Positions 8,121-62,184 of a stretch of DNA of 64,000 nt are shown one piece after another (within the stretch, counting starts at the first letter, position 1; each line of letters opens with the position of its first letter). Below the pieces are notes generated by a model. That model was not told the origin of the DNA and ran no database searches. It was given only the letters and a program-made list of their open reading frames with translations. Position numbers and translations under genes: made by a program. The stretch comes from a virus, in the IMG/VR virus record IMGVR_UViG_3300022602_000037; one strand, 5' to 3'.

Positions 8121-9099
8121 CCCAGTACTTTATAACGGCAAAAAGATTGTAGCAATTAAAAACCTTTCTAACACCTTGTTGCTAACTTGGGTTATTAACA
8201 ATATATGTACCAATCACTGTAGCTATTGTCCTAGCAATCTGCACACAGGAACTAATCACCACTATGAATGGGATCAGGCCAAAAAGTTCTTACAAGATTG
8301 TTTTAGCAAATATGGCCGTATACAATGTAATCTTTCCGGCGGCGAACCTACAGTAAGTCCTTTTTTCAAAGAATTAGTTAATTTAATTTACGATAACGGC
8401 GGAGTAACCAATCTTACAACAAATCTTGTTAGGAAAAAAGAATATTGGGCAGACATAGCAGACAAGTTATGTAGTATTGCTGTCAGTTACCATCCTGAGT
8501 TTATGGAGACAAAAGCCAAAGAAGATGAACTCATAGACAAGATATTGTATCTTAACGATTTAACAAGAGTAACTGCTCGAGTAATGATGCATCCAGACTA
8601 CTGGGATCAATGCTATAGTTTTTATAAAAGATTAGAAGCACTGAACACAGGCTTCTGCATGGAAATGGTACGTATATTGCCTAACTTTGGAGTGGGCGAA
8701 CCTTATTGTATAATTGACTATACGGAAGAACAGAATGATATATTGAACAACACACCCCCTGTGTTAAAATTTCACAACAATCTTCCACCTAGTTTTAGAC
8801 ACAACATGACCAAGTCTAATTTTGTCCATGACGATGGTAGTGAACAACATTTAGATTTCGGTGTTGCATCCACTTTGGAAAATAATAAACTAACAAATTT
8901 TCAAGGCTGGAGTTGTGATATAGGTCTAGAGAGCTTGTTTGTACACTATAATGGAAATGTACAGAAAGGTAACTGTTTTGAAGGCGGGTTTATTGGTAAT
9001 ATTACAACTGGTATCAATTGGCCTACAGAACCACAAATATGCGGCAAGGACATCTGCCATTGTATTGCTGATGTATTAATTTCAAAAAAAATGTCATGA
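8113..9099 (+). CDS. radical SAM protein with C-terminal Cys-rich domain
   Basis: CTNHCSYC, LSGGEP; C-terminal WSC..GNC..IC..ICHC. Confidence 0.88.
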   Translation: MSNPVLYNGKKIVAIKNLSNTLLLTWVINNICTNHCSYCPSNLHTGTNHHYEWDQAKKFLQDCFSKYGRIQCNLSGGEPTVSPFFKELVNLIYDNGGVTNLTTNLVRKKEYWADIADKLCSIAVSYHPEFMETKAKEDELIDKILYLNDLTRVTARVMMHPDYWDQCYSFYKRLEALNTGFCMEMVRILPNFGVGEPYCIIDYTEEQNDILNNTPPVLKFHNNLPPSFRHNMTKSNFVHDDGSEQHLDFGVASTLENNKLTNFQGWSCDIGLESLFVHYNGNVQKGNCFEGGFIGNITTGINWPTEPQICGKDICHCIADVLISKKMS

Positions 9100-47713: not shown

Positions 47714-48598
47714 ATGACTGATTATTACCAAACATTAGGTGTTAGCGAAAATGCTAGCCCGGAAGAAATAAAAAAAGCATACCGAACTTTGGCTAATAAA
47801 CACCACCCAGACAAGGGCGGAGATCAAGCCAAATTCAAAGATATTAGTGTTGCCTACGATAATCTAGGCGATCCACAAAAACGTGCAGAATACGACCAAC
47901 AACGACAATTTGGTCATGGGCAACAATTCCATTTCCATACAGGCAATCCTTTTGGCGGTGCAGATCCTTTTGGAGCTATGTTCGGAGCTGGCGGTAGTCC
48001 GTTTCCACAAGGTCATCCATTTAATGATTTATTTGGCAGAGCACGTGGTGGCGGTACAATGCGTAAGAACAGAGATCTAAATATACAATGTACTGTTAGT
48101 TTTGTAGATTCTTATCTAGGAAAACAATTAGAAGCAAACTATAGATTGCCTAGTGGTAAAAATCAAAATGTGGTAATTAATGTTCCGGCCGGTATCACTC
48201 ATGGGGACACTATACGATACCAAGGCCTAGGTGATGATAGTATTCCTAATATCCAGCGAGGGGATTTGAATGTAACTATTTTGGTGCAACCCGATCCTAT
48301 GTTTAGTCGAAATGGGGATGACCTATATACCACATTGTTTATAAATCCTATCGAAGCTATGATTGGTTGTAAGAAATCAATTACCACTATTTCTGGAGGA
48401 TCGATGGATTTAGAAATTCGGCCAGGTGTTGAACATGGTACAGAATTTGCCGCTGGAGGCAATGGATTTACCAATGTAAATACCGGAAGAAAAGGCAGAT
48501 TTGTCACCGTGATCAATATTAGAACACCAGCTATTATCGATCCAGCACTAGTAGCAAGATTGCGAGACATTAATGCTGACATTAATAACATCTCCTAA
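47714..48598 (+). CDS. dnaJ: DnaJ-class chaperone (type II, no zinc finger)
   Basis: DYYQTLGV, HHPDKGG, G/F region, C-terminal domain. Confidence 0.93.
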   Translation: MTDYYQTLGVSENASPEEIKKAYRTLANKHHPDKGGDQAKFKDISVAYDNLGDPQKRAEYDQQRQFGHGQQFHFHTGNPFGGADPFGAMFGAGGSPFPQGHPFNDLFGRARGGGTMRKNRDLNIQCTVSFVDSYLGKQLEANYRLPSGKNQNVVINVPAGITHGDTIRYQGLGDDSIPNIQRGDLNVTILVQPDPMFSRNGDDLYTTLFINPIEAMIGCKKSITTISGGSMDLEIRPGVEHGTEFAAGGNGFTNVNTGRKGRFVTVINIRTPAIIDPALVARLRDINADINNIS

Positions 48599-49070
48599 TC
48601 CAATATTAAAAACTCCTGCTGTTGATTGGGACTTCAGTCAACTGAACGATGCGGCATGGGTTGAAAAAGAAATGATCGAAATTATGAAGAAGTCAAACGG
48701 TCGCGGACTTGCGGCTAATCAAGTTGGACTACTTAAACGTGTATTCATAATTCAGTTAGAAGGGCATCCTACTCCTACTGCCATGTTTAATCCTGTTGTT
48801 AAATTTTCAAGTGAAGTTACAGAGAAGGGAGAGGAAGGGTGTTTAAGTTTTCCCGATCTTTGGTTAAATATTGAACGTCCTGTAGCACTTGATGCCGAAT
48901 ACCTTGACAACACTGGAAAAAAGTGTACAATATCACTTGTAGGCATTGATGCTAGATGTTTTTTACACGAATTAGATCACTTAAATGGAGTTTGTTTTAC
49001 AGATAAAATGAGTCCATTAAAATTAGCATTAGCAATTAAAAAACAAAAGAAAAGGAAACGTAATGGTTGA
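48573..49070 (+). CDS. def: peptide deformylase
   Basis: GRGLAANQVG, EGCLS, HELDHLNG. Confidence 0.95.
   Translation: MLTLITSPNPILKTPAVDWDFSQLNDAAWVEKEMIEIMKKSNGRGLAANQVGLLKRVFIIQLEGHPTPTAMFNPVVKFSSEVTEKGEEGCLSFPDLWLNIERPVALDAEYLDNTGKKCTISLVGIDARCFLHELDHLNGVCFTDKMSPLKLALAIKKQKKRKRNG
48904..48931 (+). promoter_or_regulatory. internal sigma70-type promoter upstream of clpA
   Basis: TTGACA-16 bp-TACAAT inside def. Confidence 0.5.
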
Positions 49071-51342
49071 ACCAAGCGATAATTTACAAGCAGTATTTGA
49101 ACAAGCAATAGATACTGCTAAAAAATTACATCATGAATATTTAACAATAGAGCATCTTTTATTTGCCATGTTAAATGACAGCGATTTCACATCTACTGTT
49201 TCTAAATTTGGCGGGAACCCCGACGAACTAAAAAAGGATTTAACAGATTATTTGCAAAATAAATGTGCAGAAATAACTATTACTGATGTTGTAATAAAAC
49301 CTAAAAAAACACAAGCAGTAGAACGTGTGCTCAATAGAGCGTTTACTCAGACATTGTTTAACGGTCGTCAGCGCATCGAACCCACAGATATTTTTATGGC
49401 TATGATGGTGGAAAAACGTAGCTGGGCACAATATTATATTAACAAAGCACAAATTGATAAAGATAAATTTGCCGATTATTTGAATAATAGTGTCGAAGAA
49501 CAGGAAGAAGAAGGACCCGGGGATCAGCAAGGAGAACGTGCATTAAAAGCATTTACTACTGATCTCAATGATATGGTTACCAAGAAAAAGGTTGATCCAG
49601 TTATCGGTCGTGTGGATGAACTTGAAAATATTGCATTAGCTCTCGGCCGACGTAGTAAAAACAATGTAATCCTTGTGGGCGATCCAGGCGTAGGAAAAAC
49701 TGCCATAGCAGAAGGTCTTGCGTTTAATATAGTTAATGGTGCGGTTCCAGATTTCCTTAAGGATTATAAAGTCTACAGTTTAGATATTTCAGCTATGCTG
49801 GCCGGTAGTAAGTATCGCGGTGACTTTGAAGAACGATTCAAGCATGTTATCAAAGCATTGCAAAAGAAAGGCAAAACTGTCTTGTTTATCGATGAAGCAC
49901 ACATGATTTCAGGTGCAGGATCTGCCAGCAACTCTGCTAACGATCTTGCCAACATGATGAAACCTGCGCTGAGTAAAGGTAATATTAAAGTTGTAGCATC
50001 GACTACTTGGGAAGAATATCGTAAACACTTTGAAAAGGATCGTGCGTTAATGCGTCGTTTCCAACGTATTACTGTCGACGAGCCTACTCAAGAAATGACT
50101 TATAGCATATTACAGGGTATTAAAAAGTATTACGAAGGTTTTCATAACGTTAAAATTCGTAATGATGCTATCCATGCGGCCATCAAGTTAAGCGTCAAAT
50201 ATCAAGCAGATAAAAAATTACCAGATAAGGCTATCGATTTGATTGATGTAGCTTGCAGTCGTTTTAATTTGAAACTTGCTGACGAACGTGTTATTGGTGA
50301 ACACGAAATTCAATATGAACTTGCTAAAATGATTCAAATGCCTGAAGAAAAAATTATGGAAACCGAATCAAGCAATCTTGCTAGCCTACAGGATAATTTA
50401 CAATCCGAAGTTTATGGACAAGATATTGCAATTACAGAAATTGTAGATAAGATCATGGTGGCACAAGCTGGCCTTAAATCCGAAAACAAACCAATCGGTA
50501 GTTTTGTATTCATGGGCCCAACTGGCACTGGTAAAACTGAAACAGCTAAATCTTTAGCTAAGAATTTAGGTGTTAAGTTGTTGCGATATGATATGAGTGA
50601 ATATCAAGAAAAGCACAGCATCAGTAAGTTGATTGGTAGTCCTCCAGGTTATGTTGGCTTTGAAGAGAACGCTGGCCTATTGATAACTCAAATTCAAGAA
50701 TCTCCTAATGCTGTTTTATTACTTGATGAAATTGAAAAAGCACATCCCGATGTTATGACTGTGCTATTACAAGTTATGGATAACGGTTTCATCACTGGGT
50801 CAAACGGCAAACAAGCTGATTGTCGTAATTTGATTCTTATCCTAACTACTAATGCTGGTGCTCAAGATGCTGAAAAGAATGCCATTGGGTTTGGCGGACA
50901 AGAAAAAACCTACAGCGATGCCGATTTGAAGAAATTCTTGACTCCTGAATTCCGTAATCGTTTAGATGGTATTGTTACATTTAGCAAACTAACTAAAGAT
51001 ACAATGATTCGTATTGTTATTAAATTTATTGACGAATTACGTGCTCAAGTTAAAGAAAAAGGTATTAAAGTCAAGATAGATAAGGAAAGTACTAATTGGC
51101 TTATTACCAAAGGGTTTGATAGCAAGATGGGTGCTCGTCCGTTACAACGTGTTATTGATAAAGAAATCAAACGTCCGTTGGCAAAACTTATGTTGTTTGG
51201 CGAGCTAAAGAATGGCGGAGTATTATCTATTAACGTTAACAATGATCAATTAGTGTTAGTACCAACTCCTAAAGAAAATAAAATAGCACTACTTACTGTT
51301 GACTCTACTAATGTTATTACAGAAGGCCAGGATGTTTTATAA
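49063..51342 (+). CDS. clpA: ATP-dependent Clp protease ATPase subunit ClpA
   Basis: Clp N-domain; two AAA+ modules (GDPGVGKT, GPTGTGKT); no ClpB middle domain; IGF loop (AIGFG). Confidence 0.93.
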   Translation: MVEPSDNLQAVFEQAIDTAKKLHHEYLTIEHLLFAMLNDSDFTSTVSKFGGNPDELKKDLTDYLQNKCAEITITDVVIKPKKTQAVERVLNRAFTQTLFNGRQRIEPTDIFMAMMVEKRSWAQYYINKAQIDKDKFADYLNNSVEEQEEEGPGDQQGERALKAFTTDLNDMVTKKKVDPVIGRVDELENIALALGRRSKNNVILVGDPGVGKTAIAEGLAFNIVNGAVPDFLKDYKVYSLDISAMLAGSKYRGDFEERFKHVIKALQKKGKTVLFIDEAHMISGAGSASNSANDLANMMKPALSKGNIKVVASTTWEEYRKHFEKDRALMRRFQRITVDEPTQEMTYSILQGIKKYYEGFHNVKIRNDAIHAAIKLSVKYQADKKLPDKAIDLIDVACSRFNLKLADERVIGEHEIQYELAKMIQMPEEKIMETESSNLASLQDNLQSEVYGQDIAITEIVDKIMVAQAGLKSENKPIGSFVFMGPTGTGKTETAKSLAKNLGVKLLRYDMSEYQEKHSISKLIGSPPGYVGFEENAGLLITQIQESPNAVLLLDEIEKAHPDVMTVLLQVMDNGFITGSNGKQADCRNLILILTTNAGAQDAEKNAIGFGGQEKTYSDADLKKFLTPEFRNRLDGIVTFSKLTKDTMIRIVIKFIDELRAQVKEKGIKVKIDKESTNWLITKGFDSKMGARPLQRVIDKEIKRPLAKLMLFGELKNGGVLSINVNNDQLVLVPTPKENKIALLTVDSTNVITEGQDVL

Positions 51343-51955
51343 GACTACAAGACGTTTATTCTTAGGCACATATCAGTACAAAATTGTGCTGACATGTGCT
51401 GGATCGTCTTCTTTTCGTAGCGGAGACATCACTAAAACTCTAGAAGAACTTAAAAAAATTGACTTAAAAAGCCATTCTAAATATCATACTACCGTTATCA
51501 AATCTCAAGAAGATTTAGATTATGCTTTTCAATTAGCCAATACTTTGATGCAATTTGACAAATATGATGTGCGTGTAGAAGCTCCATGGATCAGTTTGTA
51601 TACTAACAGTAAAAATCATATCGATACTCTAGTCAAACTTGATAAAGATAGGGTAAAATACATTAGTCAACCTGATCCTAATTCTTGTCTATCCACCGGT
51701 ACTATCATTATGCCCAAGATGGATTTTGATTATCGCATTACGCTAGGTAAAACAATTCAAGAACATAGTGCCTTTATTTCATGGGCAGATTCAAATAAAA
51801 AGTGTAAATTAACTAAAAGCTGTATTAGAGACTTAGGAAAATCACGCAGTTGGGGCGGTACACACTTTTATATCTCCGGCGATAACAATTTACTGCTGGC
51901 AAAAATGCATCTTGGCGGGTCTATAGCCAAGGTCGAGCGCATAGTTAAAAACTAA
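51332..51955 (+). CDS. hypothetical protein
   Basis: MFYKTTRR..; overlaps the clpA stop. Confidence 0.65.
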   Translation: MFYKTTRRLFLGTYQYKIVLTCAGSSSFRSGDITKTLEELKKIDLKSHSKYHTTVIKSQEDLDYAFQLANTLMQFDKYDVRVEAPWISLYTNSKNHIDTLVKLDKDRVKYISQPDPNSCLSTGTIIMPKMDFDYRITLGKTIQEHSAFISWADSNKKCKLTKSCIRDLGKSRSWGGTHFYISGDNNLLLAKMHLGGSIAKVERIVKN

Positions 51956-51969
51956 AGACTGTTAAAAGC

Positions 51970-51977
51970 GATAAATA
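51970..51977 (+). promoter_or_regulatory. late promoter GATAAATA
   Basis: At the head of the putative internal-protein cluster. Confidence 0.65.
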
Positions 51978-52023
51978 CTCTAACCGCAGAGTTTTCTGCT
52001 GAACTATTAAAACGGGCTTAAAA

Positions 52024-52395
52024 ATGCGCATACATGAACTATTAGAAGGTAAAGATTTCGATGACGAAAAGTTTGTCAAAAAAACCGGTGACAAACGAGA
52101 AATCGATTTTGATTTACCCGACGATCTTATACATTTTATGCATAACGATGACGATGTATATCGACGTCATCTTTATCCTAGTATAGCAGATTGTATTGAT
52201 CGATATAAAGATAAAAAACCCACTCATCTTAAAATTTTCAAACCTGCTGTAGAACGCAGTTATGAAGTATATGTCAAGAAGTTCCCAATAAGAGAATTAT
52301 CTGACAAATTAGATGAAAAAATGCTTGAACGTATCTGTAACAAACTTCATTCTGACACAATTCAAGATATCAAAGATGGTGCTTACAAGGATTAA
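52024..52395 (+). CDS. hypothetical protein, putative capsid-internal
   Basis: N-terminal MRIHELLE tag. Confidence 0.7.
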   Translation: MRIHELLEGKDFDDEKFVKKTGDKREIDFDLPDDLIHFMHNDDDVYRRHLYPSIADCIDRYKDKKPTHLKIFKPAVERSYEVYVKKFPIRELSDKLDEKMLERICNKLHSDTIQDIKDGAYKD

Positions 52396-52397
52396 TT

Positions 52398-53639
52398 GTG
52401 TTATTAAGAGAATTGTTTATCCGTGAAACTACTAAACCTGCTGAAACAAAAAAGAAACAAGTAGGCAGAGCTTTCAATCATCCTGAAGATTTAACTTTTA
52501 TGAATGGAAGTAAAGGTGCAATAACCGCGCTTGAACATATTAAAAAAATTGCCAATGATTCCGGAGCAGTTAGATTAAAATGGGACGGTGCTCCTCAGGT
52601 ATACTGGGGGTGGCATTGGAATGACCAAACTGGGCAACATGAATTTGTAACTGCTAATCACAACGGTTGGTTGCGCGGCGGCGGCGGCACTAGTGATGTA
52701 AGTGAATTCACTAATCAACACGGTATCTATAATTTTATTGCTAATCGCAGTGGCAATGCAAAAACTCCAGAAGAACAACAACAAAGAGAAATATTTGCCA
52801 AAGAATTTAGTTTTTTACATCCTGTATTAGAAAAAGCAACTAAAAGGCCTAAAAAAGGCAAAAGTTTATTTTTCTATGCCGACGGATTATTTTTACAACC
52901 TCCAAGAGTAGATACCAACGGTGTTTATAATCTGCATCCTAATCCAAAAGGCAATACAGTTTATCATATAGCACAAGATACCGAACTAGGACAACGTATA
53001 AGTCGCGCAAGAGCTATGATGGTTGGACACGGAATGTTTACACAGTTTGGTGCGCCAGATGAGGCACAACAGGCCGTAGAAGATTTTAGTCCTTATATAG
53101 ACGATTCAATTACTGATATAATTATTCTTGGACCATATTATACACAAATACAACCACAGGTAGATACCGACGCTATTGATCAAGTTGAACAAAGTATTAA
53201 AGCTCATGGTCACGAAATCGATAGCTTCTTAGCACCAATATCCGGTGTAAGTGGATTTAAGAATATAGTATATCGTTATGTAAACACCATGGCCAAAGAA
53301 GGAAATTTAGCAAACGTAGCAAATAATTTTATGTCGTGGGCACAAACAAATACTAATGTAGTAAGTGCTAATCAATATGAAAAAATTGCAGAGCGTCTAA
53401 AACAATTCCCTGGCGGATTAACTGCTATGTTTAATTTGTTTTCAGATATTATGCAATTAAAAAATCAGATACTTGCACAGTTAGATGCAGATCCTGGAGA
53501 AATAAAAGTAAGTAATCCAGAAGGATGGGTACACTATGACAAAAAAGGTGACGACCATATTAAGCTGGTGCCACGTCATGCTATCGAAACACCTCACGGA
53601 ACAACTATTCCAGCATGGGTGCCTGGGGGCGCAAAATGA
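52398..53639 (+). CDS. RNA/DNA ligase-like nucleotidyltransferase (DUF6267-like)
   Basis: LKWDGAP (motif I), YADGLF (III), PEGWV (IV), IKLVPR (V). Confidence 0.6.
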   Translation: MLLRELFIRETTKPAETKKKQVGRAFNHPEDLTFMNGSKGAITALEHIKKIANDSGAVRLKWDGAPQVYWGWHWNDQTGQHEFVTANHNGWLRGGGGTSDVSEFTNQHGIYNFIANRSGNAKTPEEQQQREIFAKEFSFLHPVLEKATKRPKKGKSLFFYADGLFLQPPRVDTNGVYNLHPNPKGNTVYHIAQDTELGQRISRARAMMVGHGMFTQFGAPDEAQQAVEDFSPYIDDSITDIIILGPYYTQIQPQVDTDAIDQVEQSIKAHGHEIDSFLAPISGVSGFKNIVYRYVNTMAKEGNLANVANNFMSWAQTNTNVVSANQYEKIAERLKQFPGGLTAMFNLFSDIMQLKNQILAQLDADPGEIKVSNPEGWVHYDKKGDDHIKLVPRHAIETPHGTTIPAWVPGGAK

Positions 53640-54694
53640 GATTAAGACAGATATTTGAAACTCAGAATCGTAAAGTTGACGCGGCATTTTGTTTTGGACG
53701 TTTTAATCCAGCACATCAAGGTCATATGAAAGTATGGGAAGCTGTTAAGCATGCTGGACGTCATTGGTATATTGGAACCAATCCAACTACTATAGGGCCT
53801 AACGATCCATTACCTTTTGATATTAAAACAGCATGGATGACCGCTATTGATCCTAGTATTAAGGGTCACGTACTAGGAGAACAAAGTATTGTAACACTTG
53901 CTTCTAAAATTTATCAAGATGTAGGCGAAGGTGCCGTTATAGCCTATGTAACAGATAGTCAAGATTGGGCGTGGAGTGGAAAACTATTACATCAGTATAA
54001 TGGCAAAGAAAGTAATCATGGCTATTACAATTTTTCAAATATAATTCATATAGAAAGTCCTCGTGTAACAAGTGCTACAGAATTACGAAATGCCGCCCGA
54101 TCAGGCAATGAAGATTTATTTTATCAACTGGCCGGAGTTGATCCTAGTTTAACTATTGCTGGAAAAACTTATTTTGAAACTGTAGTAGAGGCATTAGGAC
54201 AACATCCTGAAAAGGTTAAACGTGCCAAGAAAGCAAAAGCTGTAGCAGAAGAATCAAATTCAATTAAATATGCTAATAAGGTAATAAGAGAGATGAGAGC
54301 ACAAGAATTTATGCGCAAGCAACTAGCAGAAGGCGATGTTCCGTATGCTGGTAAGGGTTCTGAAAAATTGCACCATGTTCATATTCAAGCACTTAAAAAT
54401 GCTATGAGTATTCCTAATATTAGCATGAACAAAGCTAATGGAAGTCCATATATGCAATATCGTTTTGGTATTGCATTAGCAAATCCTACACAAACTCCAA
54501 GAGCTGGGGCTATGAGTGGTGATCCTTTAATTACTGCATATACAGAAGAAGAATTAGAAAAAGTAAAACTTACAGCTAAAATGATGGGTGCAGGTTCTAT
54601 TACACATTTAAGCGATGGCCGTAGTAATGAAGCAGAAGGCGGTAACAAAGTTAGCCCTGTAAGAAAACAAAAGAAAAACAAGTACGGTATATAA
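53636..54694 (+). CDS. cytidylyltransferase-like (HxGH) protein fused to a KKNKYGI-family domain
   Basis: FGRFNPAHQGH, NDPLPF, SATELR; internal MRAQEF module. Confidence 0.75.
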   Translation: MRLRQIFETQNRKVDAAFCFGRFNPAHQGHMKVWEAVKHAGRHWYIGTNPTTIGPNDPLPFDIKTAWMTAIDPSIKGHVLGEQSIVTLASKIYQDVGEGAVIAYVTDSQDWAWSGKLLHQYNGKESNHGYYNFSNIIHIESPRVTSATELRNAARSGNEDLFYQLAGVDPSLTIAGKTYFETVVEALGQHPEKVKRAKKAKAVAEESNSIKYANKVIREMRAQEFMRKQLAEGDVPYAGKGSEKLHHVHIQALKNAMSIPNISMNKANGSPYMQYRFGIALANPTQTPRAGAMSGDPLITAYTEEELEKVKLTAKMMGAGSITHLSDGRSNEAEGGNKVSPVRKQKKNKYGI

Positions 54695-55074
54695 TGCGAG
54701 CAAAAGAATTTATCACTGAACATACTGGCAAACATCACGAGCACCATGCGACGGCGGCGCAGGGTACACGCAAGGCAAGAGATCCAGGAGGATTTTATCC
54801 TAGCTATCATCAGATGCGTACAGGTATAGTGCTCGGTATGATGGACGGATCTGGTAAAACACCTAAACCACAACCTCCGCATGAAAGCTGGATGGGACCG
54901 TTTTGGACACAGCATCCTTATACTGAAGTAGAACATAATATGTTTAGAGATGCTCGTAAAATTATTCCTACAGATGATCACGAAGTTTTACCTTGGCATA
55001 AAAGCAAAGAACCAGATGATACGCATAAAGTAAGTCCAGTAGCAGGCAAAAAGAAAAACAAGTACGGTATATAA
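54669..55074 (+). repeat. identical 26-bp direct repeat at gene ends
   Basis: AAAAGAAAAACAAGTACGGTATATAA at 54669-54694 and 55049-55074; degenerate copy at 55581-55603. Confidence 0.85.
54694..55074 (+). CDS. KKNKYGI-family paralog
   Basis: MRAKEFITE ... SPVAGKKKNKYGI. Confidence 0.75.
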   Translation: MRAKEFITEHTGKHHEHHATAAQGTRKARDPGGFYPSYHQMRTGIVLGMMDGSGKTPKPQPPHESWMGPFWTQHPYTEVEHNMFRDARKIIPTDDHEVLPWHKSKEPDDTHKVSPVAGKKKNKYGI

Positions 55075-55075
55075 C

Positions 55076-55603
55076 ATGCGAGCCAAAGAATTTTTATCCG
55101 AACAACACAGAGTAGAAGTTAACCCACGTTCTAAATCTGATGTTAGACAGTTGGGTCAAAAACAGTTATCTAAGGAATATCATCCTAAAAAATTTAAGTA
55201 CGGCGAACGAGGTGTTCCTATAGGCGTTGATCCTCACGATCCGCATAATCAAACTTTAAGCAATACAGAATACGGTAGCAAGCGTGGAGATATGGCTGTA
55301 GAATTCCAAGCTAGTTTGCCAGGAGCATTCAGTGTTGAAAATTTAGCTAGTGATTTCTACGGAGTATACAGATTAGGCATGGGGTTAGCTGCCGGCGATC
55401 GTAATATTGCCGCTGCCGATAATATAGGCAAGCATCCATTTTTTGTGCCTTTTGCTCCTGAAGAGCATGATAAGTTTGACAAAGAAATCAAACGTCAAGG
55501 TCATAAAACTAAATTAAGAACAACTCAACAGAGTTTGGAAATATCAACAGTGAATACAGTAACACCTGTAGCAAAAATTAAAAAGAACAAATACGGTATC
55601 TAA
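55076..55603 (+). CDS. KKNKYGI-family paralog
   Basis: MRAKEFLSE ... TPVAKIKKNKYGI. Confidence 0.75.
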   Translation: MRAKEFLSEQHRVEVNPRSKSDVRQLGQKQLSKEYHPKKFKYGERGVPIGVDPHDPHNQTLSNTEYGSKRGDMAVEFQASLPGAFSVENLASDFYGVYRLGMGLAAGDRNIAAADNIGKHPFFVPFAPEEHDKFDKEIKRQGHKTKLRTTQQSLEISTVNTVTPVAKIKKNKYGI

Positions 55604-56044
55604 ATGGAACACAATAAATATCATCTAGCATTAAAGACAGCATTTGCATCGGAGTTCAGCTTTTATCTTAAAAGTCATAACTTCCATTGGAATGTTGAAG
55701 GACCATTATTTGGTCAACTACATGAATTATTTGAGCGTATCTATACCGAAGTCTATGGTAGTATAGATACATTTGCCGAACATTTACGTGCTTTACAAAT
55801 ATATACACCAGCTAGTTTGCACAAATTCAGTATGCTTACCGCAGTAAGTGATGAAGATAGTGTTCCCCAATGGAGTGAAATGTTACAAGAATTACTAGCA
55901 GACAGCGATAAAATGGCCGAGATATTTCGTATTACATTTGATATGGCCGAACATCATGGAGATCACGGTCTAAGTAACTTCCTAGCAGATCGTCAAGATG
56001 CACATAAAAAGCATAGTTGGATGTTAAGAGCGAGTTTGAAATAA
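55604..56044 (+). CDS. dps: Dps / mini-ferritin
   Basis: HNFHWNVEG..F..LHELFE..Y, D..AE.LR, K..WML. Confidence 0.92.
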   Translation: MEHNKYHLALKTAFASEFSFYLKSHNFHWNVEGPLFGQLHELFERIYTEVYGSIDTFAEHLRALQIYTPASLHKFSMLTAVSDEDSVPQWSEMLQELLADSDKMAEIFRITFDMAEHHGDHGLSNFLADRQDAHKKHSWMLRASLK

Positions 56045-56274
56045 TGGATGAACTAGCACGTCTTAAGAAGTTAGCAGGCATTAATGAGTTTAAGGGCCTA
56101 CAACCTTATGGCGGAAGCAATATCAGTATAACTGGTACAGAGAAAGCAAAGATTATGCGTGAACAAAACATACAACCAGGAACTGAAGAATGGTTTAAGT
56201 TATGGTTTAGCTTACCTAAATTTATGAATGGCGAACGTGCTGTAGGCACTGGATACAGAGGAATTAAAAAATGA
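56044..56274 (+). CDS. hypothetical protein
   Basis: MDELARLKKLAGINE; TAATG overlap with dps. Confidence 0.7.
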   Translation: MDELARLKKLAGINEFKGLQPYGGSNISITGTEKAKIMREQNIQPGTEEWFKLWFSLPKFMNGERAVGTGYRGIKK

Positions 56275-57242
56275 AAATTAATGATCTTTTAACTGAAGAA
56301 GAATACGACTATTACAGAGATTACAAAAACGGACTTATTTCTTATGAAGAGTATCAAGATCTTGTTAAACAGTTCAAAGAAAGAGAACGAGCTCACCACC
56401 ATGCATCTGCTAATCACGACCGCGGTCCTTGGTACATCCGTGTAGATGGTAAAATTTACAAACAAAAAGGTCAAGCCAAAGTATTTGATTGGAAAAAAGG
56501 TGCTAATAATTACGCTCTTGCTATGATTAAAAATAGACCCGATCTAGATGGCAAAATTAAACTTACTAAAAATCCTGTAGACAATCAAGAACAAATAACA
56601 CCTCCTAACACACTAGAAGAAAAATGGAGTCAAAAATACAAGAGTAGTATCAATTGTAGTCACCCTAAAGGTTTCAGTCAACGAGCTCACTGTGCAGGCA
56701 AGAAAAAACATAACGAAAGTATGCAGGTAATAGAAATGACCTGCCCAGATTGCGGTATGTGCGAAGCACACAGTAATATGACACTTCAAGAAATTAAAAA
56801 AGGTCAAAAGGATAGCAATGGGTTTACCAAGTGCTGGCCAGGACATCATGCGGCTGGTACTAAGAAGGGTAAGAACGGAGGCATAGTTCGTAACTGTGTA
56901 CCTAACGAAAATGTGGCGGAAGGCGGTGGAGCTCAACAGGCAGCGATTGCGATTGCTAAGAAAAAATCCGGAAAATATGACAAAGAAGGAAAACGCATTA
57001 AGGAATCGGCCACAGTAGGTGCTACAAGCAGTGCCAATATAGGTACAGTAGTAAGCCCTCATTTAGCTATAGGAAAGAAAAAGGGCAAAAAATCCTATAC
57101 AGGAACACCCGGACATAGTGGAACAACAGCACCTAAACCCCCTAAAATTATCCAGAAAAAGAAAAAAGACGGCACTGCTGTCAACGCATTAGATATGAAA
57201 GGCACCAGTTTATTTGGTGGGCCTAGTATTAAAAGACGCTAA
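56271..57242 (+). CDS. modular putative capsid-internal protein
   Basis: MKINDLLTEE; short Cys-containing and basic modules separated by xxE sites. Confidence 0.7.
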   Translation: MKINDLLTEEEYDYYRDYKNGLISYEEYQDLVKQFKERERAHHHASANHDRGPWYIRVDGKIYKQKGQAKVFDWKKGANNYALAMIKNRPDLDGKIKLTKNPVDNQEQITPPNTLEEKWSQKYKSSINCSHPKGFSQRAHCAGKKKHNESMQVIEMTCPDCGMCEAHSNMTLQEIKKGQKDSNGFTKCWPGHHAAGTKKGKNGGIVRNCVPNENVAEGGGAQQAAIAIAKKKSGKYDKEGKRIKESATVGATSSANIGTVVSPHLAIGKKKGKKSYTGTPGHSGTTAPKPPKIIQKKKKDGTAVNALDMKGTSLFGGPSIKRR

Positions 57243-57268
57243 ATACATAAAGACAACGGAGTATACTC

Positions 57269-58804
57269 ATGCCAGCAGAATTAGACAATCAAGAACCAGA
57301 ATTAGATGCACAATCACCTGAAATGAATGAACCAGAAATGGATCAAGACATGGGTCCAGAACCAATGGACAATGATAATGCAGTTATTGGTTTACACGGT
57401 GACGAGGGTGATCGTGAAGGTGCTATGGCCAAAGCTGATTTATTCAAATTAGCAAACTATTCACACAAATTATATCAACAATTGAACGACGAAGATCAGT
57501 TAGAATCATGGGTTCAAGCAAAGATTACCAAAGCCGCAGACTATATTGCTAGCGTATATCACTATTTAGAATATGAAATGAAGTTCAGTGAGTATGGCCA
57601 TCATTTAGACAACAGCGACACATTAAGCGAAGGACAAAAAATGCGATTAAAAGAAATGTTAGCTGAAGCTAAAGATAAGATGAAAGATTTGAAAAAATCA
57701 CAAGCCGAAAAGATGAAAGAAAAGAAAGTATCAGAAGGTATTATGAGTGGCGGTGAACACGAATGTGCTGAATGTGGCGGAACTGGTGTTGTTTATCATC
57801 CAGGTGTTCAGCCTAGTGAACGTGCAAAAAAATTAGCCGCTAAACACAATCGAGAAACTCGTGCGCATTATGCCGCTCACAAGCGTTTGCAAGCTGAAGA
57901 AGGTGCAGTAGACGAAAACTTTGATGGCGAGCGTGGTGCAGATCAAGATACACCAAGTAAGTTTAACAAACAAAAAACTTCAACTGGTACACGTTATACA
58001 CGTAAGTCTAGTACATTCAGCGATGAGCATGATGGCGGATCTGGTATTAAGAGCCATGCCAAAGCTAAATCAAGCGATGAAAAGAAAGCTGACAAATCAA
58101 ACGATATCAAACTACCTAAGCACAGTGGAAACACATGGGGCATGAAAGGTGGCGAGAAGTTTGGTAAGAAAATGGAAGAAGGTAAGAAAGCTGATAAAGA
58201 TTATGACGGCGACGGCAAAATCGAATCAGGCAAAGATGAATATTTAGGTAGCAAAATCCGTGCCGCTAAGAAAGCTGGCAAACTAAAAGAAGCACAAAAA
58301 TGTAACGAATGTGGTTATATTATGGAAAAGTGCAAATGCGATCAATTAGATGAAGCTAAACCAAGTGCAGGTCTAAGCAAGGCTAAAAAGTCTGCTGTAG
58401 TTAAAGATGCTAAAGCAGGCAAAGACATTGGTAAGCCAGGTAAGAGCTTTGACAAAGTAGCTAAGGCTGCTGGTGGTGGTAAGAAAGGCGAGAAGATTGC
58501 CGCTGCCGCTATGTGGAAGAACATCAAAGAAACTACTGCATATCTAGCTGAAAAGAAAAAGAAAGAAAAAATGACTGATGAGAATTTGACAGTTGTTCCA
58601 AATCCATCAGGTGCTAAGGATGCTGAAGAAGCTAAAAAGTTAGGTGCCGCAATGCCAGCACCAGCAGGTAAAAAAGATCCAATTAGTGAATCAGCACGTT
58701 TACGTGAAATAACAGGTCGTTTATTGCAAAATGAAAAACCAGTAGTTGCTGAATCACGTGAAGTTGATCAAATCCGTGCATTGACAAAACGCCTATTGGG
58801 ATAA
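57269..58804 (+). CDS. charged putative capsid-internal / scaffold-like protein
   Basis: CTAAATA at 57239; WVQAKITKAADYI, CAECGGTG, DxDxDG; many L/V-x-E sites. Confidence 0.7.
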   Translation: MPAELDNQEPELDAQSPEMNEPEMDQDMGPEPMDNDNAVIGLHGDEGDREGAMAKADLFKLANYSHKLYQQLNDEDQLESWVQAKITKAADYIASVYHYLEYEMKFSEYGHHLDNSDTLSEGQKMRLKEMLAEAKDKMKDLKKSQAEKMKEKKVSEGIMSGGEHECAECGGTGVVYHPGVQPSERAKKLAAKHNRETRAHYAAHKRLQAEEGAVDENFDGERGADQDTPSKFNKQKTSTGTRYTRKSSTFSDEHDGGSGIKSHAKAKSSDEKKADKSNDIKLPKHSGNTWGMKGGEKFGKKMEEGKKADKDYDGDGKIESGKDEYLGSKIRAAKKAGKLKEAQKCNECGYIMEKCKCDQLDEAKPSAGLSKAKKSAVVKDAKAGKDIGKPGKSFDKVAKAAGGGKKGEKIAAAAMWKNIKETTAYLAEKKKKEKMTDENLTVVPNPSGAKDAEEAKKLGAAMPAPAGKKDPISESARLREITGRLLQNEKPVVAESREVDQIRALTKRLLG

Positions 58805-59688: not shown

Positions 59689-62184
59689 ATGAACTTAAGA
59701 GACTTAATGAACAAACTGGATACTATTGCAGAAGCAGATGATGCTAGAGCACAGTATGATAAATTCAAAGCAGATGATGCTAAGGCAGGAGCCATTGCAC
59801 AAGTTAAAAAAATGCTGTCACCTAACGGTATGCAAAACTTCATCGATCCTAAAGATGGTATTGTTAAATGGCAGGAACAAATGAACGGAGAATCCGGAGG
59901 TCCTGGTAGTATTAGAGAATTTCCATTTGACTGGTATAAGAAAGGACAAAATGCTGATTTTTTCAATATTCTAAAAACAGCAGGGTTGGAACTAGTTCCG
60001 GTTGATAGAAAAAATTTGTTTGGTACAAGTCAAGTAGTAGGTATTAAAGGTGGTCCACAAGCATTAGCTGATTTAGGTAAACCAAAACCACCAACAGACG
60101 GCGGTGGCGGTAAACCTACAGCAGGTGCATCTACACTTACCGCAGATGCCGCGGCACTAGAAGCATTGACAAATCAATTAGATGCATTGCTAGGCGCAGG
60201 GGGCGGTGGTAAACCAGACGTTAAACCTCCTGTAACACATTTACCTCCAAATCCTCCACCAAATTGGAATCCTCCAATCAATCCTAAAACTAAAAAGCCG
60301 TTCAGTTGGGGTGAGTTTGCGGCCGCAGTAGCTGCCGGAGCTATGCCAGGTGCAATGGTAGGTGGACTACCAGGTGCTGCCATAACCGGTACTGCCGGTG
60401 GAGCAGTTGATGCATATCATCAGCTACATAACGAAAGTATTGCTAAGACACTAGCAGAGAGTTTTGGGTATCAACTAGACGACAAACAATTGAATGAAGC
60501 AGACATTAACCCATTCAATGGATTGAGTGGAATAGGAGGCCTAGGAGGTTCTCGTCCTACATCAACCATGCGAGTAGGAGGAACAAACTGGACTGCTACA
60601 GCTCATGATCCTAACTTATTCAGCAACGGACAAGGCGCTACCAAGACCTATCAAGATCTAGCTAAAGGCGGAGATGTCGCAACCCATACAGCAGGCGATG
60701 TAGAAAAAATTGCCGCTAAAACAGCAATACCAATTGAAAAAGATATCGGAACAGCTACAGCTAAAACTGTTGCTAAAACAGGCGCTAAAGATGTTATTAA
60801 GAAATTAATCCCCGGTGTTGGTCTAGTAGTTGGTACTATCGATGCTATCAAACGTGCTCAAGAAGGTGACTGGAAAGGTGCCGCAATGGCTGGTGCAAGT
60901 GGTCTATTAAGTTTAGTACCCGGTGTTGGAACAGCCGCTAGTTTAGGACTAGATGCCGCTAACATATATCGTGACTACAAAGCTGGAAAGTTTGGTGGTG
61001 GCGATGCCGGTGGATCTGGTGGTGCTCCTGGAGGTACAACCGGCGGTGATCAAAAGCTACAACAGCTACAAAAAATTATCGGTGCTAAACCAGATGGCCT
61101 AATGGGCCCAGAAACTAAAGCCAAGTTACAAGCATGGCAACAAAAGAATGGTCTAACACCAGATGGAATGCCTGGTCCACAAACTTATGGCAAAGCTGGA
61201 ATCAAAGAGACAACACAAACAGTTGCAGAAGGTATTCGCAATTTACAAGAACGTTTAGCATTAATTGAAACTAAAGCTACAATCAAAGAAAGTATTGCTG
61301 GTCGCCGTTATTTCCTAGATGAAAATTGTTTTATGTTTGACGAAAATGGTGAACAGGTTACAGATCTAGTTACTATTGCCGCTATTAACGAAGCCTACGT
61401 AAACGGTGAGGTTGAAGTAGACGAAGGTATTTGGAGTGACATAGCTTCAGGTGCCGCAAAATACGGCAAAGGTGCATATGATGCCGCTAAAGATTTTGGC
61501 GGTGCATTATTAAAGGGCGGTCGTAATCCAGAAGCGGCTGAACGTTTGGCCAAGTGGTCTGGAGTATCCGGTGCTAAGAAAGCAGGATTAAAAACTGCGG
61601 CAACTATTGCTAAAAATCCAATTAAGTCAGCGGCAGCCGCTACAGCATTAGGTGTAGGCGGTGCGGCCGCATTGGGTGGTAACAGTGGCAATACTCCAGA
61701 TACAACTAATACAGGCAATGGTGGCGGTGGTGTCGGTGGTGGCGGTGGCGGTGGTTCACCAGCCGATGCAACAGATGCAGTAACTCCAAATGCAGGTGCT
61801 GTAGATCCAAAAATTGCAGATTTAGAAAAACAAATCAAAGCATTGATGGCAAAACATGGCGATGACGATCAAGAAGCGCAAAACAGCCCTATTTGGCAAC
61901 AAGCAACATCTCATGCACAAGCTGTAATAGACAAAGCCGATAAAGTTAATCCAGCTCAAACTACAGCAGATCAACAGGCAGCTCAAACAGTTAAACCTGG
62001 ATCAGAAACACCAACAGCATCTACTACAACAGGCGCTGGAGGTGCTGGTAGTCCATCCGGTACTACTGGAGTAGTTCCTAAAAAAGGACCACCAGATTTA
62101 GATGGTAAATCACAGATTCCCGGTGTCAAAAACGAAGACTCTAGTGCAGAATTAGCTCGTTGGTTACAAATCGCTCGCGGTTAA
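59689..62184 (+). CDS. large Gly/Ala-rich protein with a peptidoglycan-binding domain, putative ejection protein
   Basis: LQ..IGAKPDGLMGPET...WQQKNGLTPDG.PGPQT (PG_binding_1-like, ~61050-61200); glycine-zipper hydrophobic segments. Confidence 0.7.
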   Translation: MNLRDLMNKLDTIAEADDARAQYDKFKADDAKAGAIAQVKKMLSPNGMQNFIDPKDGIVKWQEQMNGESGGPGSIREFPFDWYKKGQNADFFNILKTAGLELVPVDRKNLFGTSQVVGIKGGPQALADLGKPKPPTDGGGGKPTAGASTLTADAAALEALTNQLDALLGAGGGGKPDVKPPVTHLPPNPPPNWNPPINPKTKKPFSWGEFAAAVAAGAMPGAMVGGLPGAAITGTAGGAVDAYHQLHNESIAKTLAESFGYQLDDKQLNEADINPFNGLSGIGGLGGSRPTSTMRVGGTNWTATAHDPNLFSNGQGATKTYQDLAKGGDVATHTAGDVEKIAAKTAIPIEKDIGTATAKTVAKTGAKDVIKKLIPGVGLVVGTIDAIKRAQEGDWKGAAMAGASGLLSLVPGVGTAASLGLDAANIYRDYKAGKFGGGDAGGSGGAPGGTTGGDQKLQQLQKIIGAKPDGLMGPETKAKLQAWQQKNGLTPDGMPGPQTYGKAGIKETTQTVAEGIRNLQERLALIETKATIKESIAGRRYFLDENCFMFDENGEQVTDLVTIAAINEAYVNGEVEVDEGIWSDIASGAAKYGKGAYDAAKDFGGALLKGGRNPEAAERLAKWSGVSGAKKAGLKTAATIAKNPIKSAAAATALGVGGAAALGGNSGNTPDTTNTGNGGGGVGGGGGGGSPADATDAVTPNAGAVDPKIADLEKQIKALMAKHGDDDQEAQNSPIWQQATSHAQAVIDKADKVNPAQTTADQQAAQTVKPGSETPTASTTTGAGGAGSPSGTTGVVPKKGPPDLDGKSQIPGVKNEDSSAELARWLQIARG

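What the first reader, a model, noticed from the sequence alone, without database searches (positions are those of the whole stretch)
52398..54290. Tagged enzyme pair: ligase-like nucleotidyltransferase plus HxGH nucleotidyltransferase
The first ORF has covalent-nucleotidyltransferase motifs in the right order (KWDG at 52578, YADGLF, EGWV, KLV) but no obvious DNA-ligase OB domain. The phage already has a normal ligase at 3078. The overlapping ORF has an NMNAT/PPAT-type FGRFNP.HxGH..SAT.LR core. Both carry the packaging-like tag. Inference: a two-enzyme module acting immediately after injection, for example RNA/tRNA repair, NAD or signal-nucleotide manipulation, or protein nucleotidylation against host defence.
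Basis: partly seen in the sequence, partly recalled or inferred. Interest (0 to 1): 0.7.

Follow-up and report, generated by a model that had tools for sequence, protein, structure and literature searches.

The report
Head-tagged ligase-like and nucleotidyltransferase enzyme pair
An uncultured giant T4-related phage has two coupled genes, an unrecognised ligase-shaped enzyme (DUF6267) and an NMNAT/PPAT-like nucleotidyltransferase, that form a widespread, often fused phage module; here both carry the short leader T4 uses to load proteins into its head, so they are probably injected with the DNA to mend broken nucleic acid.

Summary
ORF1 (52398-53639) belongs to Pfam DUF6267. Its model folds like the nucleotidyltransferase domain of ATP-dependent RNA/DNA ligases and has no OB domain. 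K-x-D-G is invariant in 139 of 139 family representatives. ORF2 starts at 53636 (ATGA overlap) and has an HxGH nucleotidyltransferase domain with an NMNAT/PPAT fold. That domain is fused in frame to a small basic module.

The two enzymes are linked. They are adjacent in 58 of 74 evaluable related loci and fused in one polypeptide in 30 of 148 representatives. A Pol-beta-type transferase, kinase, HAD or 2H domains often join them, so a nucleic-acid end-repair kit, probably for RNA, is the best reading.

The shared leader is conserved as peptide, not as DNA, and ends in a T4 protease-type L/I-x-E site. It is restricted to a cluster at 52-60 kb. Relatives encode a gp21-type prohead protease. Published virion proteomes of two cyanophages contain the tagged transferase homologue. 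Packaging is therefore plausible but indirect, and unshown for the ligase-like protein.

The biochemistry is untested. This scan already found the same module on other DNA (24 notes in at least 24 genomes).

The parts
52024..52395 (+). 123-aa tagged protein (MRIHELLE...), conserved immediately upstream of the pair; function unknown
   Evidence: Tag match. A homologue lies upstream of DUF6267 in most related loci. No Pfam, PHROG or Atlas lead.
52398..53639 (+). DUF6267 protein with the fold of a ligase nucleotidyltransferase domain, 413 aa
   Evidence: PF19782 E 3.7e-18. AF2 mean pLDDT 88.3. The top 20 of 48,161 chains by VIA-align are all ligases, Z 5.1-6.9. 231 close and 339 distant relatives.
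52398..52427 (+). N-terminal leader MLLRELFIRE (CTS-like, contains L-R-E and I-R-E)
   Evidence: Residues 1-23 are disordered in the model (pLDDT below 50). E5, F7 and E10 are nearly invariant. 108 of 120 near homologues carry the strict tag.
52578..52589 (+). Motif I K61-W-D-G (predicted nucleotidyl-lysine)
   Evidence: K, D and G are each present in 139 of 139 aligned 50%-identity representatives. hhalign's only alignment, which is not significant, puts it on KLDG of the window's canonical ligase.
52875..52892 (+). Motif III-like Y-A-D-G-L-F (Asp in place of the usual Glu)
   Evidence: D162 in 118 of 142 representatives, L164 in 114 of 141.
53166..53489 (+). Helical insertion of about 110 aa (aa 257-364) between the strands bearing motifs IIIa and IV; candidate substrate-binding module replacing an OB domain
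   Evidence: Secondary structure of the model: helices 257-278, 287-300, 311-317, 324-336 and 340-364. K355 is invariant in 144 of 144. The role is inferred.
53520..53573 (+). Motif IV E375-G-W-V and motif V K389-L-V-P
   Evidence: G376 in 107 of 110, K389 in 106 of 106. Invariant in A1.
53636..54220 (+). HxGH (HIGH-superfamily) nucleotidyltransferase domain with leader MRLRQIFE
   Evidence: PF01467 E 6.7e-4, phrog_3041 E 1.3e-13. Blocks of 10 residues from aa 11 to 190 average pLDDT 83-96. Foldseek hits NadM at 3e-6 and PPAT/NadD at probability 1.0. H27, G29, H30, S146, A147, T148, L150 and R151 are invariant.
53693..53725 (+). FGRFNPAHQGH nucleotide-binding motif
   Evidence: Invariant columns F20 G21 R22 F23 N24 P25 H27 G29 H30.
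54221..54292 (+). Basic linker with two predicted protease sites (V-A-E at aa 203-205, I-R-E at aa 217-219)
   Evidence: pLDDT below 50 at aa 199-211. The x-A-E boundary and the IKYANKV(I/L)RE-M junction are conserved in homologues and in L001 and L002. Cleavage is inferred.
54293..54694 (+). C-terminal cargo module with its own internal tag (MRAQEF...) and the shared ...KKNKYGI end; paralogue of the next two genes
   Evidence: One search finds the internal tag. The in-frame fusion is kept in the two closest relatives. Low-confidence fold.
54694..55603 (+). Two further tagged small proteins (MRAKEFITE..., MRAKEFLSE...) with the same KKNKYGI end; context for the tag

Best explanation
The two genes encode a coupled enzyme pair. 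ORF1 is a divergent covalent nucleotidyltransferase of the ATP-dependent ligase fold (family DUF6267). It has a motif-I lysine, no OB domain and a helical insertion. It most likely forms a lysyl-NMP intermediate and seals 5'-phosphate/3'-OH ends. ORF2 is an HxGH nucleotidyltransferase that transfers an NMP onto a phosphate acceptor; its exact substrate is unknown. Together they form the core of a phage nucleic-acid end-repair kit, with RNA/tRNA favoured over DNA. In many phages a Pol-beta-type end-filling transferase joins the kit, and sometimes kinase, phosphatase or 2H domains do too. In this jumbo-phage lineage both proteins carry a T4-type capsid-targeting leader that ends in an L/I-x-E prohead-protease site. 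They are therefore probably loaded into the prohead core, trimmed, and ejected with the DNA, so that they act before any phage gene is expressed. The transferase also drags in a C-terminal basic cargo module that the protease would release. Shown here: the folds, motifs, linkage, fusions and tag distribution. Inferred: the catalysis, the substrate, the packaging and the cleavage.
For: Ligase fold: the AF2 model has mean pLDDT 88.3. The 20 best of 48,161 PDB representatives are all RNA/DNA ligase nucleotidyltransferase domains (NgrRnl Z 6.9, T4 Rnl2 6.5 and 6.3, REL1 6.4, T7 ligase 6.2), with about 180 residues aligned. Active site: K61, D63 and G64 are each present in 139 of 139 representatives, K389 in 106 of 106 and K355 in 144 of 144. 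Transferase: HxGH and S-A-T-x-L-R are invariant, and the fold matches NadM/PPAT/NadD. Coupling: the genes share an ATGA overlap. They are adjacent in 58 of 74 evaluable IMG/VR loci and 3 more have the transferase within the flank. 30 of 148 representatives fuse both domains. phrog_455 itself spans both domains. 509 cultured phage records match a fused DUF6267-transferase protein (P0382), and the listed rows carry the pair or its fusion. Repair context: a Pol-beta-type transferase gene lies directly upstream in 32 of 80 loci and is fused in about 40 proteins. P0318 adds a PNK/HAD domain and P0382 adds a domain that PHROGs labels 'RNA ligase' (phrog_755); its likely 2H-phosphoesterase nature is my reading. 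HTVC008M places a P-loop kinase between the two genes. The association of an RNA ligase with a Pol-beta transferase (RlaP) is an established RNA-repair theme (PMC7824862, PMC12776372). Packaging: the tag occurs only at the starts of clustered genes, is conserved at peptide level, and always sits at the extreme N-terminus whatever the architecture. It resembles the 10-residue T4 CTS described in PMC9026906. A gp21-family protease is present in 4 of 5 related contigs. The protein at the gp67 position in the head module of G002 bears the same tag. Tagged transferase homologues were detected by mass spectrometry in S-SZBM1 virions (gp140, MRFRQFIIE) and S-CREM2 virions (gp154, MKNFSSFLTE), while S-SZBM1's untagged DUF6267 (gp141) does not occur in that paper's text or table and no ORF at the S-CREM2 DUF6267 position appeared in the part of its table I read.
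Against: No biochemistry exists for any member. The structural Z scores (5-7) are in the range the tool warns can be a common arrangement. Foldseek found nothing at E <= 0.001, and hhalign against the window's own ligase is not significant. Motif III has Asp instead of Glu. The role of an HxGH enzyme in end repair has no precedent that I could find. The Pol-beta partner is absent from this window, and no tRNA or tmRNA gene lies nearby. This phage has a canonical DNA ligase, so a sealing role is not needed for replication. Packaging evidence for DUF6267 itself is only the tag. The authors of the S-CREM2 paper caution that abundant enzymes may co-purify with virions. In cyanophages the genes sit among replication genes.
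Confidence: 0.5

Rival explanations
1. Same enzymes, DNA target. The pair, with PolX-like partners elsewhere, fills and seals nicks or gaps in the phage's own DNA, for example nicks in the incoming genome or damage from host nucleases. If packaged, it does this at the moment of entry.
For: DNA ligases score within 1 Z of the RNA ligases. One fused partner domain hits DNA_pol_B_palm weakly (P0355, E 0.004). S-PM2 and HTVC008M have no PF01068 ligase, so DUF6267 could be their sealing enzyme. The cyanophage genes sit beside UvsX, gp41 and MazG.
Against: There is no OB domain, which DNA ligases use to encircle duplex DNA. The top structural hits and the accessory domains (a phrog_755 'RNA ligase' domain, probably 2H; PNK/HAD; a Pol-beta transferase as in RlaP cassettes) are those of RNA repair. 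The window, G002 and DLP6 already encode a canonical DNA ligase.
Confidence: 0.2
2. Cofactor or nucleotide metabolism. The HxGH enzyme is an NMN adenylyltransferase (or makes another dinucleotide) that restores NAD+ against NAD-depleting defences. The ligase-fold enzyme uses or makes the same nucleotide conjugate, for example through an AMP-lysine intermediate with NMN.
For: The best fold and profile matches of ORF2 are NMNAT-type (NadM 3e-6; weak NCBIfam hits). P-loop kinase plus HIGH transferase is the NadR-type NAD salvage architecture (PMC7824862; HTVC008M gp129). Authors of the cyanophage papers speculate on NAD+.
Against: NCBIfam NMNAT equivalog scores are 13-20 bits against cut-offs of 112-449. 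PPAT matches equally well. This reading does not explain the obligate ligase-fold partner or the Pol-beta transferase, PNK/HAD and phrog_755 fusions. No Nampt or Nudix partner was seen in the domain scans of the ORFs flanking the pair (51299-58804).
Confidence: 0.15
3. The enzymes are not packaged. The shared leader has another role (assembly chaperone binding, regulated proteolysis, localisation), and the enzymes work in the cytoplasm during infection as their untagged cyanophage relatives presumably do.
For: Untagged orthologues exist in replication modules (S-PM2, S-SZBM1 gp141). The T4 late promoter TATAAATA is depleted in the window (1 found against 10.8 expected), and promoter and terminator scans are at chance level. 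Virion mass-spectrometry hits are few peptides and could be carry-over.
Against: The tag resembles the T4 CTS and ends in the protease motif. It marks the gp67-position head-core protein of a relative and an 831-aa peptidoglycan-binding protein. Tag presence tracks virion detection in two cultured phages.
Confidence: 0.3
4. A capping-like or protein-nucleotidylating enzyme. The lysyl-NMP is transferred to a 5'-diphosphate RNA end or to a host protein rather than used for ligation.
For: Capping enzymes share the fold and the KxDG motif (vaccinia and human capping enzymes score Z 4.1-4.5).
Against: Capping enzymes rank below about 30 ligases and need an OB domain that is absent. Nothing in the fusions points to protein substrates.
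Confidence: 0.05

Closest known systems
ATP-dependent RNA ligases without an OB domain (Naegleria NgrRnl/Rnl5 5cot, T4 Rnl2 1s68/2hvq, T. brucei REL1 1xdn; also Trl1-LIG, T4 Rnl1)
   Same: The nucleotidyltransferase fold, motif I KxDG, motif IV EGxV and the motif V lysine occur in the same order. There is no OB domain. The enzyme associates with end-healing and end-filling enzymes.
   Different: No sequence-level relation is detectable: only DUF6267 hits in Pfam and nothing in the PDB by sequence. Motif III has Asp in place of Glu. A helical bundle of about 110 aa is inserted before motif IV. It has an invariant N-H-x-E box before motif I. Its obligate partner is an HxGH transferase.
Cyanomyovirus core gene pair 'hypothetical protein (T4-GC 71) + cytidyltransferase' (S-PM2d138 fusion, S-SZBM1 gp141/gp140, HTVC008M gp127/gp130)
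   Same: These are homologous proteins with the same order or fused. The transferase carries a CTS-like leader and is found in virions.
   Different: There the ligase-like protein is untagged and lies among replication genes. Here both are tagged and lie in a cluster of tagged genes, and the transferase carries a different C-terminal cargo. Identity is too low for tblastn to link ORF1 to any cultured phage.
RlaP (Pol-beta transferase) plus RNA ligase repair cassettes of bacteria and jumbo phages (PMC7824862, PMC12776372)
   Same: A ligase-fold enzyme is paired or fused with a Pol-beta-superfamily transferase that would restore lost 3' nucleotides before sealing.
   Different: The Pol-beta domain here is not PF10127; the only Pfam hit is a weak one to PF14792. 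It is absent from this window. The HxGH enzyme has no counterpart in those cassettes.
T4 internal proteins IPI-III and Alt (capsid-targeting sequence, gp21 processing, ejection)
   Same: A short N-terminal leader with E-F/L-I-x-E ends in L/I-x-E. Unrelated cargo proteins share it. A gp21-family protease is present in relatives. The precedent of an injected enzyme (Alt) applies.
   Different: The cargo enzymes are of different kinds. The leader consensus is M-(R/K/L)-(L/A)-(R/K)-(E/Q/D)-(L/I/F)-(F/L/I)..E. An internal second leader sits inside a fusion protein. No proteomic proof exists for this phage.

Membership tests
Covalent nucleotidyltransferase superfamily (ATP/NAD ligases, capping enzymes) | Motif I KxDG with the nucleophilic lysine | tested here: met
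   K61-W-D-G. K, D and G are each present in 139 of 139 representatives and invariant in A1.
Covalent nucleotidyltransferase superfamily (ATP/NAD ligases, capping enzymes) | Motifs III, IV and V in order after motif I | tested here: inconclusive
   Motif IV (E375-G-x-V) and motif V (K389-x-V) are conserved. The motif III position has Y-A-D-x-L-F with Asp, not the canonical Glu. The assignment rests on order and on the model, not on a residue-level superposition.
Covalent nucleotidyltransferase superfamily (ATP/NAD ligases, capping enzymes) | Nucleotidyltransferase-domain fold | tested here: met
   The 20 best of 48,161 chains are ligases, Z 5.1-6.9, 144-198 residues aligned. Caveats: Z is below 8 and Foldseek's best E is 0.07.
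Covalent nucleotidyltransferase superfamily (ATP/NAD ligases, capping enzymes) | Formation of a covalent enzyme-NMP adduct | not testable with these tools
   Needs a labelled-nucleotide assay with a K61A control.
ATP-dependent DNA ligases / mRNA capping enzymes | C-terminal OB-fold domain after motif V | tested here: not met
   Only about 20 residues follow K389. The model shows no OB barrel. There is no PF01068/PF04679 hit.
Named RNA ligase families (Rnl1, Rnl2, Rnl3, Rnl5) | Sequence membership (profile match) | tested here: not met
   Pfam at E <= 0.1 gives only DUF6267. NCBIfam gives nothing. PDB phmmer gives nothing relevant.
HxGH (HIGH) nucleotidylyltransferase superfamily | HxGH motif, second S-x-T-x-x-R motif, Rossmann-like fold | tested here: met
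   H27-Q-G-H30 and S146-A-T-E-L-R151 are invariant. Foldseek gives probability 1.0 to NadM, PPAT and NadD. PF01467 scores 20.3 bits against a cut-off of 21.
NMN/NaMN adenylyltransferases (NadM, NadR, NadD equivalogs) | Score above the curated equivalog cut-off | tested here: not met
   13-20 bits against cut-offs of 112-449.
T4-type capsid-targeted internal proteins | Short N-terminal leader ending in an L/I-x-E protease site | tested here: met
   ORF1 has L-R-E and I-R-E within residues 3-10. ORF2 has I-F-E at residues 6-8. The same holds for six other clustered genes.
T4-type capsid-targeted internal proteins | gp21-family prohead protease in the genome | tested here: inconclusive
   PF03420 is over its cut-off in 4 of 5 related contigs that carry the pair. 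The window's own genome is not held.
T4-type capsid-targeted internal proteins | Physical presence in virions with a trimmed N-terminus | not testable with these tools
   Only published mass spectrometry for tagged transferase homologues in S-SZBM1 and S-CREM2 is available. There is nothing for DUF6267.
RlaP-type RNA-ligase/Pol-beta repair cassette | Pol-beta transferase gene adjacent to the ligase | tested here: not met
   The profile of the partner domain finds nothing in the window at E <= 10. It is present upstream in 32 of 80 related loci.

The most novel reading that the evidence does not exclude
A giant phage pre-loads its capsid with a ready-made nucleic-acid repair kit: a new family of RNA-ligase-like enzyme plus an HxGH transferase that activates or tags RNA ends. 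It injects the kit with its genome, so that tRNA- or RNA-cleaving abortive-infection defences are undone before the first phage gene is read. The HxGH enzyme would then perform a chemistry on polynucleotide phosphate ends not known for this superfamily.
Probability: 0.2. Interest if true: 0.85.

Novelty: new variant of a known kind. Interest (0 to 1): 0.6.

Why it matters
DUF6267 plus the 'cytidyltransferase' is among the most widespread unexplained gene pairs of T4-like phages. A fused family member matched 509 cultured phage records, mostly marine cyanophages. Hundreds of metagenomic relatives exist.

Recognising it as a ligase-fold enzyme tied to two other nucleotidyltransferase folds gives these genes a testable function. 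It may also supply the sealing enzyme that S-PM2 and HTVC008M appear to lack.

If the tagged forms really travel in the head, they would add enzymatic repair to the short list of activities phages inject, alongside Alt and IPI. They would also show that the T4 targeting leader is a portable address label used far beyond coliphages, which matters for phage-defence biology and for protein delivery by engineered phages.

Tried and rejected
- **The look-up of encoding contigs:** Context came from IMG/VR loci instead.
- **ORF1 against cultured phages:** tblastn gave no match. The link to cultured phages appeared only through a fused family member.
- **PDB by sequence:** searches for both proteins gave nothing relevant.
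- **Foldseek on ORF1:** no hit at E <= 0.001.
- **hhalign, DUF6267 against the window's ligase:** not significant.
- **Own genome:** not held.
- **Expression signals:** the T4 late promoter motif is depleted, and generic promoter and terminator scans are at chance. I make no claim about timing.
- **RNA genes:** no tRNA or tmRNA and no Rfam family in the window. The tRNA/tmRNA adjacency reported elsewhere does not hold here.
- **The 123-aa upstream protein:** the Atlas search gave nothing usable.
- **NCBIfam:** no family-level name for either enzyme.
- **Burroughs and Aravind 2016 (RNA repair systems):** not held, so I could not check whether it describes this family.
- **Literature search for DUF6267:** no paper found.
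Full report
**What is there.** The region holds a tight run of plus-strand genes. ORF1 (52398-53639, 413 aa) starts with GTG two bases after the stop of a 123-aa gene. ORF2 is listed from 53615. The ATG at 53636 overlaps ORF1's TGA as ATGA and gives the N-terminus MRLRQIFE that all homologues share, so 53636 is the likely start. A canonical ATP-dependent DNA ligase lies at 3078-4403 (phrog_114, E 1.7e-95).

**ORF1 is a ligase-fold enzyme of an uncharacterised family.** Its only profile match is Pfam DUF6267 (E 3.7e-18). A full-text search found no paper that names this family. The word-index search found 231 relatives, and the 120 listed all carry PF19782. The exhaustive search found 339 cluster representatives.

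An AlphaFold model built on 34 sequences is confident (mean pLDDT 88.3), with residues 1-23 disordered. Foldseek found nothing at E <= 0.001, but its best hits were RNA editing ligase 1 and DNA ligases IV and III. The exhaustive VIA-align search of 48,161 chains returned ligases in all 20 top places: NgrRnl Z 6.9, T4 Rnl2 6.5 and 6.3, REL1 6.4, T7 ligase 6.2, and Trl1, LigIII, LigIV and T4 ligase at 5.1-5.6. About 180 residues aligned in each case. These Z values are modest, and the tool warns about values under 8.

The uniform list and the motifs carry the argument together. K61, D63 and G64 are each present in 139 of 139 aligned representatives, K389 in 106 of 106, K355 in 144 of 144 and G376 in 107 of 110. 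Motif III has Asp where ligases have Glu. There is no OB domain. Instead, five helices (aa 257-364) are inserted before motif IV. By sequence the protein belongs to no named ligase family.

**ORF2 is an HxGH nucleotidyltransferase fused to cargo.** In the model, blocks of 10 residues from aa 11 to 190 average pLDDT 83-96. Foldseek matches NadM, PPAT and NadD with probability 1.0, the best E being 3e-6. FGRFNPxHxGH and S-A-T-x-L-R are invariant. NCBIfam equivalogs for NMNAT score 13-20 bits against cut-offs of 112-449. The superfamily is therefore certain and the substrate is open.

After HPEKVKK the homologues diverge completely. Lengths run from 201 to 589 aa, and some carry sigma-70 region 4 domains. 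In the window the extension is a linker (…AVAEE…IKYANKVIRE) followed by an internal copy of the tag (MRAQEF, at 54293) and a module ending KKNKYGI. That module is paralogous to the next two genes. The same in-frame junction is kept in the two closest relatives, so it is not an assembly error.

**The two enzymes belong together.** I scored 80 IMG/VR loci that encode a DUF6267 relative with profiles for both domains.
- 74 loci were evaluable.
- In 58 the transferase starts within 400 bases downstream.
- In 3 it lies further along the flank.
- In 13 it is absent.

Among 148 representatives at 50% identity, an iterated profile finds both domains in one polypeptide in 30 (Pfam and PHROGs confirm examples). 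phrog_455 itself spans both domains. A fused member (P0382) matches 509 cultured phage records, mostly cyanomyoviruses, and also HTVC008M, Melnitz and Stenotrophomonas phage DLP6. The listed rows show the pair annotated as 'hypothetical protein | cytidyltransferase' or, in S-PM2, as one fused 591-aa protein.

**What the partners say about function.** A third domain of about 240 aa recurs, with the Pol-beta-superfamily signature G-S-T-G…S-G-D-L-D-x-A-V-D … Q-x-D-x-M-F.
- It is fused to DUF6267 in about 40 proteins.
- It is a separate gene directly upstream in 32 of 80 loci.
- One copy hits DNA_pol_B_palm weakly (E 0.004), and the Atlas points to NTP_transf_2 as a lead only.
- It is not in this window.

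Other fusions add a polynucleotide-kinase/HAD segment (P0318) and a domain that PHROGs labels 'RNA ligase' (phrog_755, P0382), which is probably of the 2H type. HTVC008M places a P-loop kinase (Zeta_toxin/AAA_33) between the two genes.

Ligase plus Pol-beta transferase plus kinase, phosphatase and 2H is the known grammar of RNA heal-and-seal systems, including the RlaP cassettes of jumbo phages (PMC7824862, PMC12776372). I therefore favour nucleic-acid end repair, with RNA ahead of DNA. The DNA reading keeps weight for two reasons: S-PM2 and HTVC008M lack any PF01068 ligase, and DNA ligases score nearly as well structurally. What an HxGH enzyme does in such a kit is unexplained. The NAD-salvage rival rests on this gap.

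**The tag.** A strict pattern for the leader matches true ORF starts only at 52024, 52398, 53636, 54694, 55076, 56271 and 59689, plus the internal copy at 54293. The copies use different codons, so the signal is a peptide. Each ends with L/I-x-E within 8-15 residues.

The tag is present in 108 of 120 near homologues of ORF1 and in 116 of 120 of ORF2. Among distant DUF6267 proteins it is present in 28 of 148, always at the extreme N-terminus, even when another domain comes first.

This behaviour matches the T4 capsid-targeting sequence as reviewed in PMC9026906: a ten-residue propeptide that suffices for head loading, is removed by gp21, and is shared by unrelated cargo.

Four of five related contigs that carry the pair encode a gp21-family protease (PF03420). 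In the near-complete 356-kb relative, the head module reads portal, a 79-aa protein starting MILRELFY in the gp67 position, an acidic protein, protease, scaffold, then capsid protein.

Published mass spectrometry adds the only experimental support. S-SZBM1 virions contain gp140, the transferase, whose N-terminus is MRFRQFIIE. S-CREM2 virions contain gp154, which starts MKNFSSFLTE and is homologous to ORF2 (E 4e-6). S-SZBM1's untagged DUF6267 (gp141) does not occur in that paper's text or table. No ORF at the position of S-CREM2's untagged DUF6267 appeared in the part of its virion table that I read. The S-CREM2 authors themselves warn of possible co-purification. DLP6 and Melnitz have tagged DUF6267 proteins and would be the right phages for a test.

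**Verdict.** Head packaging is plausible at about 0.6. The substrate is not settled: RNA about 0.45, DNA about 0.2, a cofactor about 0.15.

The same module has been reported by this scan in 24 earlier notes from at least 24 other genomes. My independent tests agree with those reports. New for this window:
- both partners are tagged;
- the Pol-beta partner is missing;
- a canonical ligase coexists with the pair;
- the transferase is a conserved fusion with a second, internally tagged cargo module.

Noticed in passing
window 16451-30250: A single 4599-aa ORF with no Pfam match at E <= 0.001. It lies upstream of a 1559-aa protein with an Mtd_N (tropism determinant) N-terminus and a 930-aa protein with an Ig-like He_PIG domain. 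It is probably a giant fibre or adhesin but remains unexplained.
   Followed up: partly
window 5480-9099: Three consecutive genes all match radical-SAM PHROGs (phrog_14086, phrog_21308, phrog_13987). This is an unusual triple for a phage.
   Followed up: no
window 48573-51342: A peptide-deformylase-like gene and a 759-aa ClpA/ClpB-like double AAA+ protein. I identified them from the translations only (EGCLS…HELDH; two GxxGxGKT boxes). The Clp-like gene is conserved upstream of the tagged trio in most related loci.
   Followed up: partly
window 55604-56044: An untagged Dps/ferritin-like gene (PF00210, E 4e-22) sits in the middle of the tagged-gene cluster. It keeps that position in many relatives.
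   Followed up: partly
window 59689-62184: An 831-aa protein with the same leader (MNLRDLMNKLDTIAE), a peptidoglycan-binding domain, and peptidase and endolysin PHROG matches. It looks like an ejected cell-wall-cutting head or tail protein.
   Followed up: partly
P0212, P0216, P0229 (homologues of ORF2): Some transferase homologues carry sigma-70 region 4 domains (PF04545, PF08281) as C-terminal cargo after the conserved x-A-E boundary. If packaged, this would be an injected sigma-like module.
   Followed up: no
L091 667-1767 (G002 scaffold gene) and window 56044: The scaffold-like protein of the 356-kb relative ends in …RRLAGLKI. This resembles the E-L-A-R-L-K-K-L-A-G helix that starts the window gene at 56044, and may be a second head-docking motif.
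   Followed up: no
window, whole: The T4 late-promoter octamer TATAAATA occurs once against 10.8 expected from shuffles. If this phage has T4-like late transcription, it uses another motif.
   Followed up: no
L049, L056, L058, L060-L065, L067-L069, L075, L080: A subgroup of DUF6267 loci has no HxGH transferase within the flank (L062's flank was too short to judge). Apart from L060, where a Pol-beta gene lies further upstream, all have the Pol-beta-type transferase gene directly upstream. The ligase-like enzyme can therefore pair with either partner alone.
   Followed up: partly
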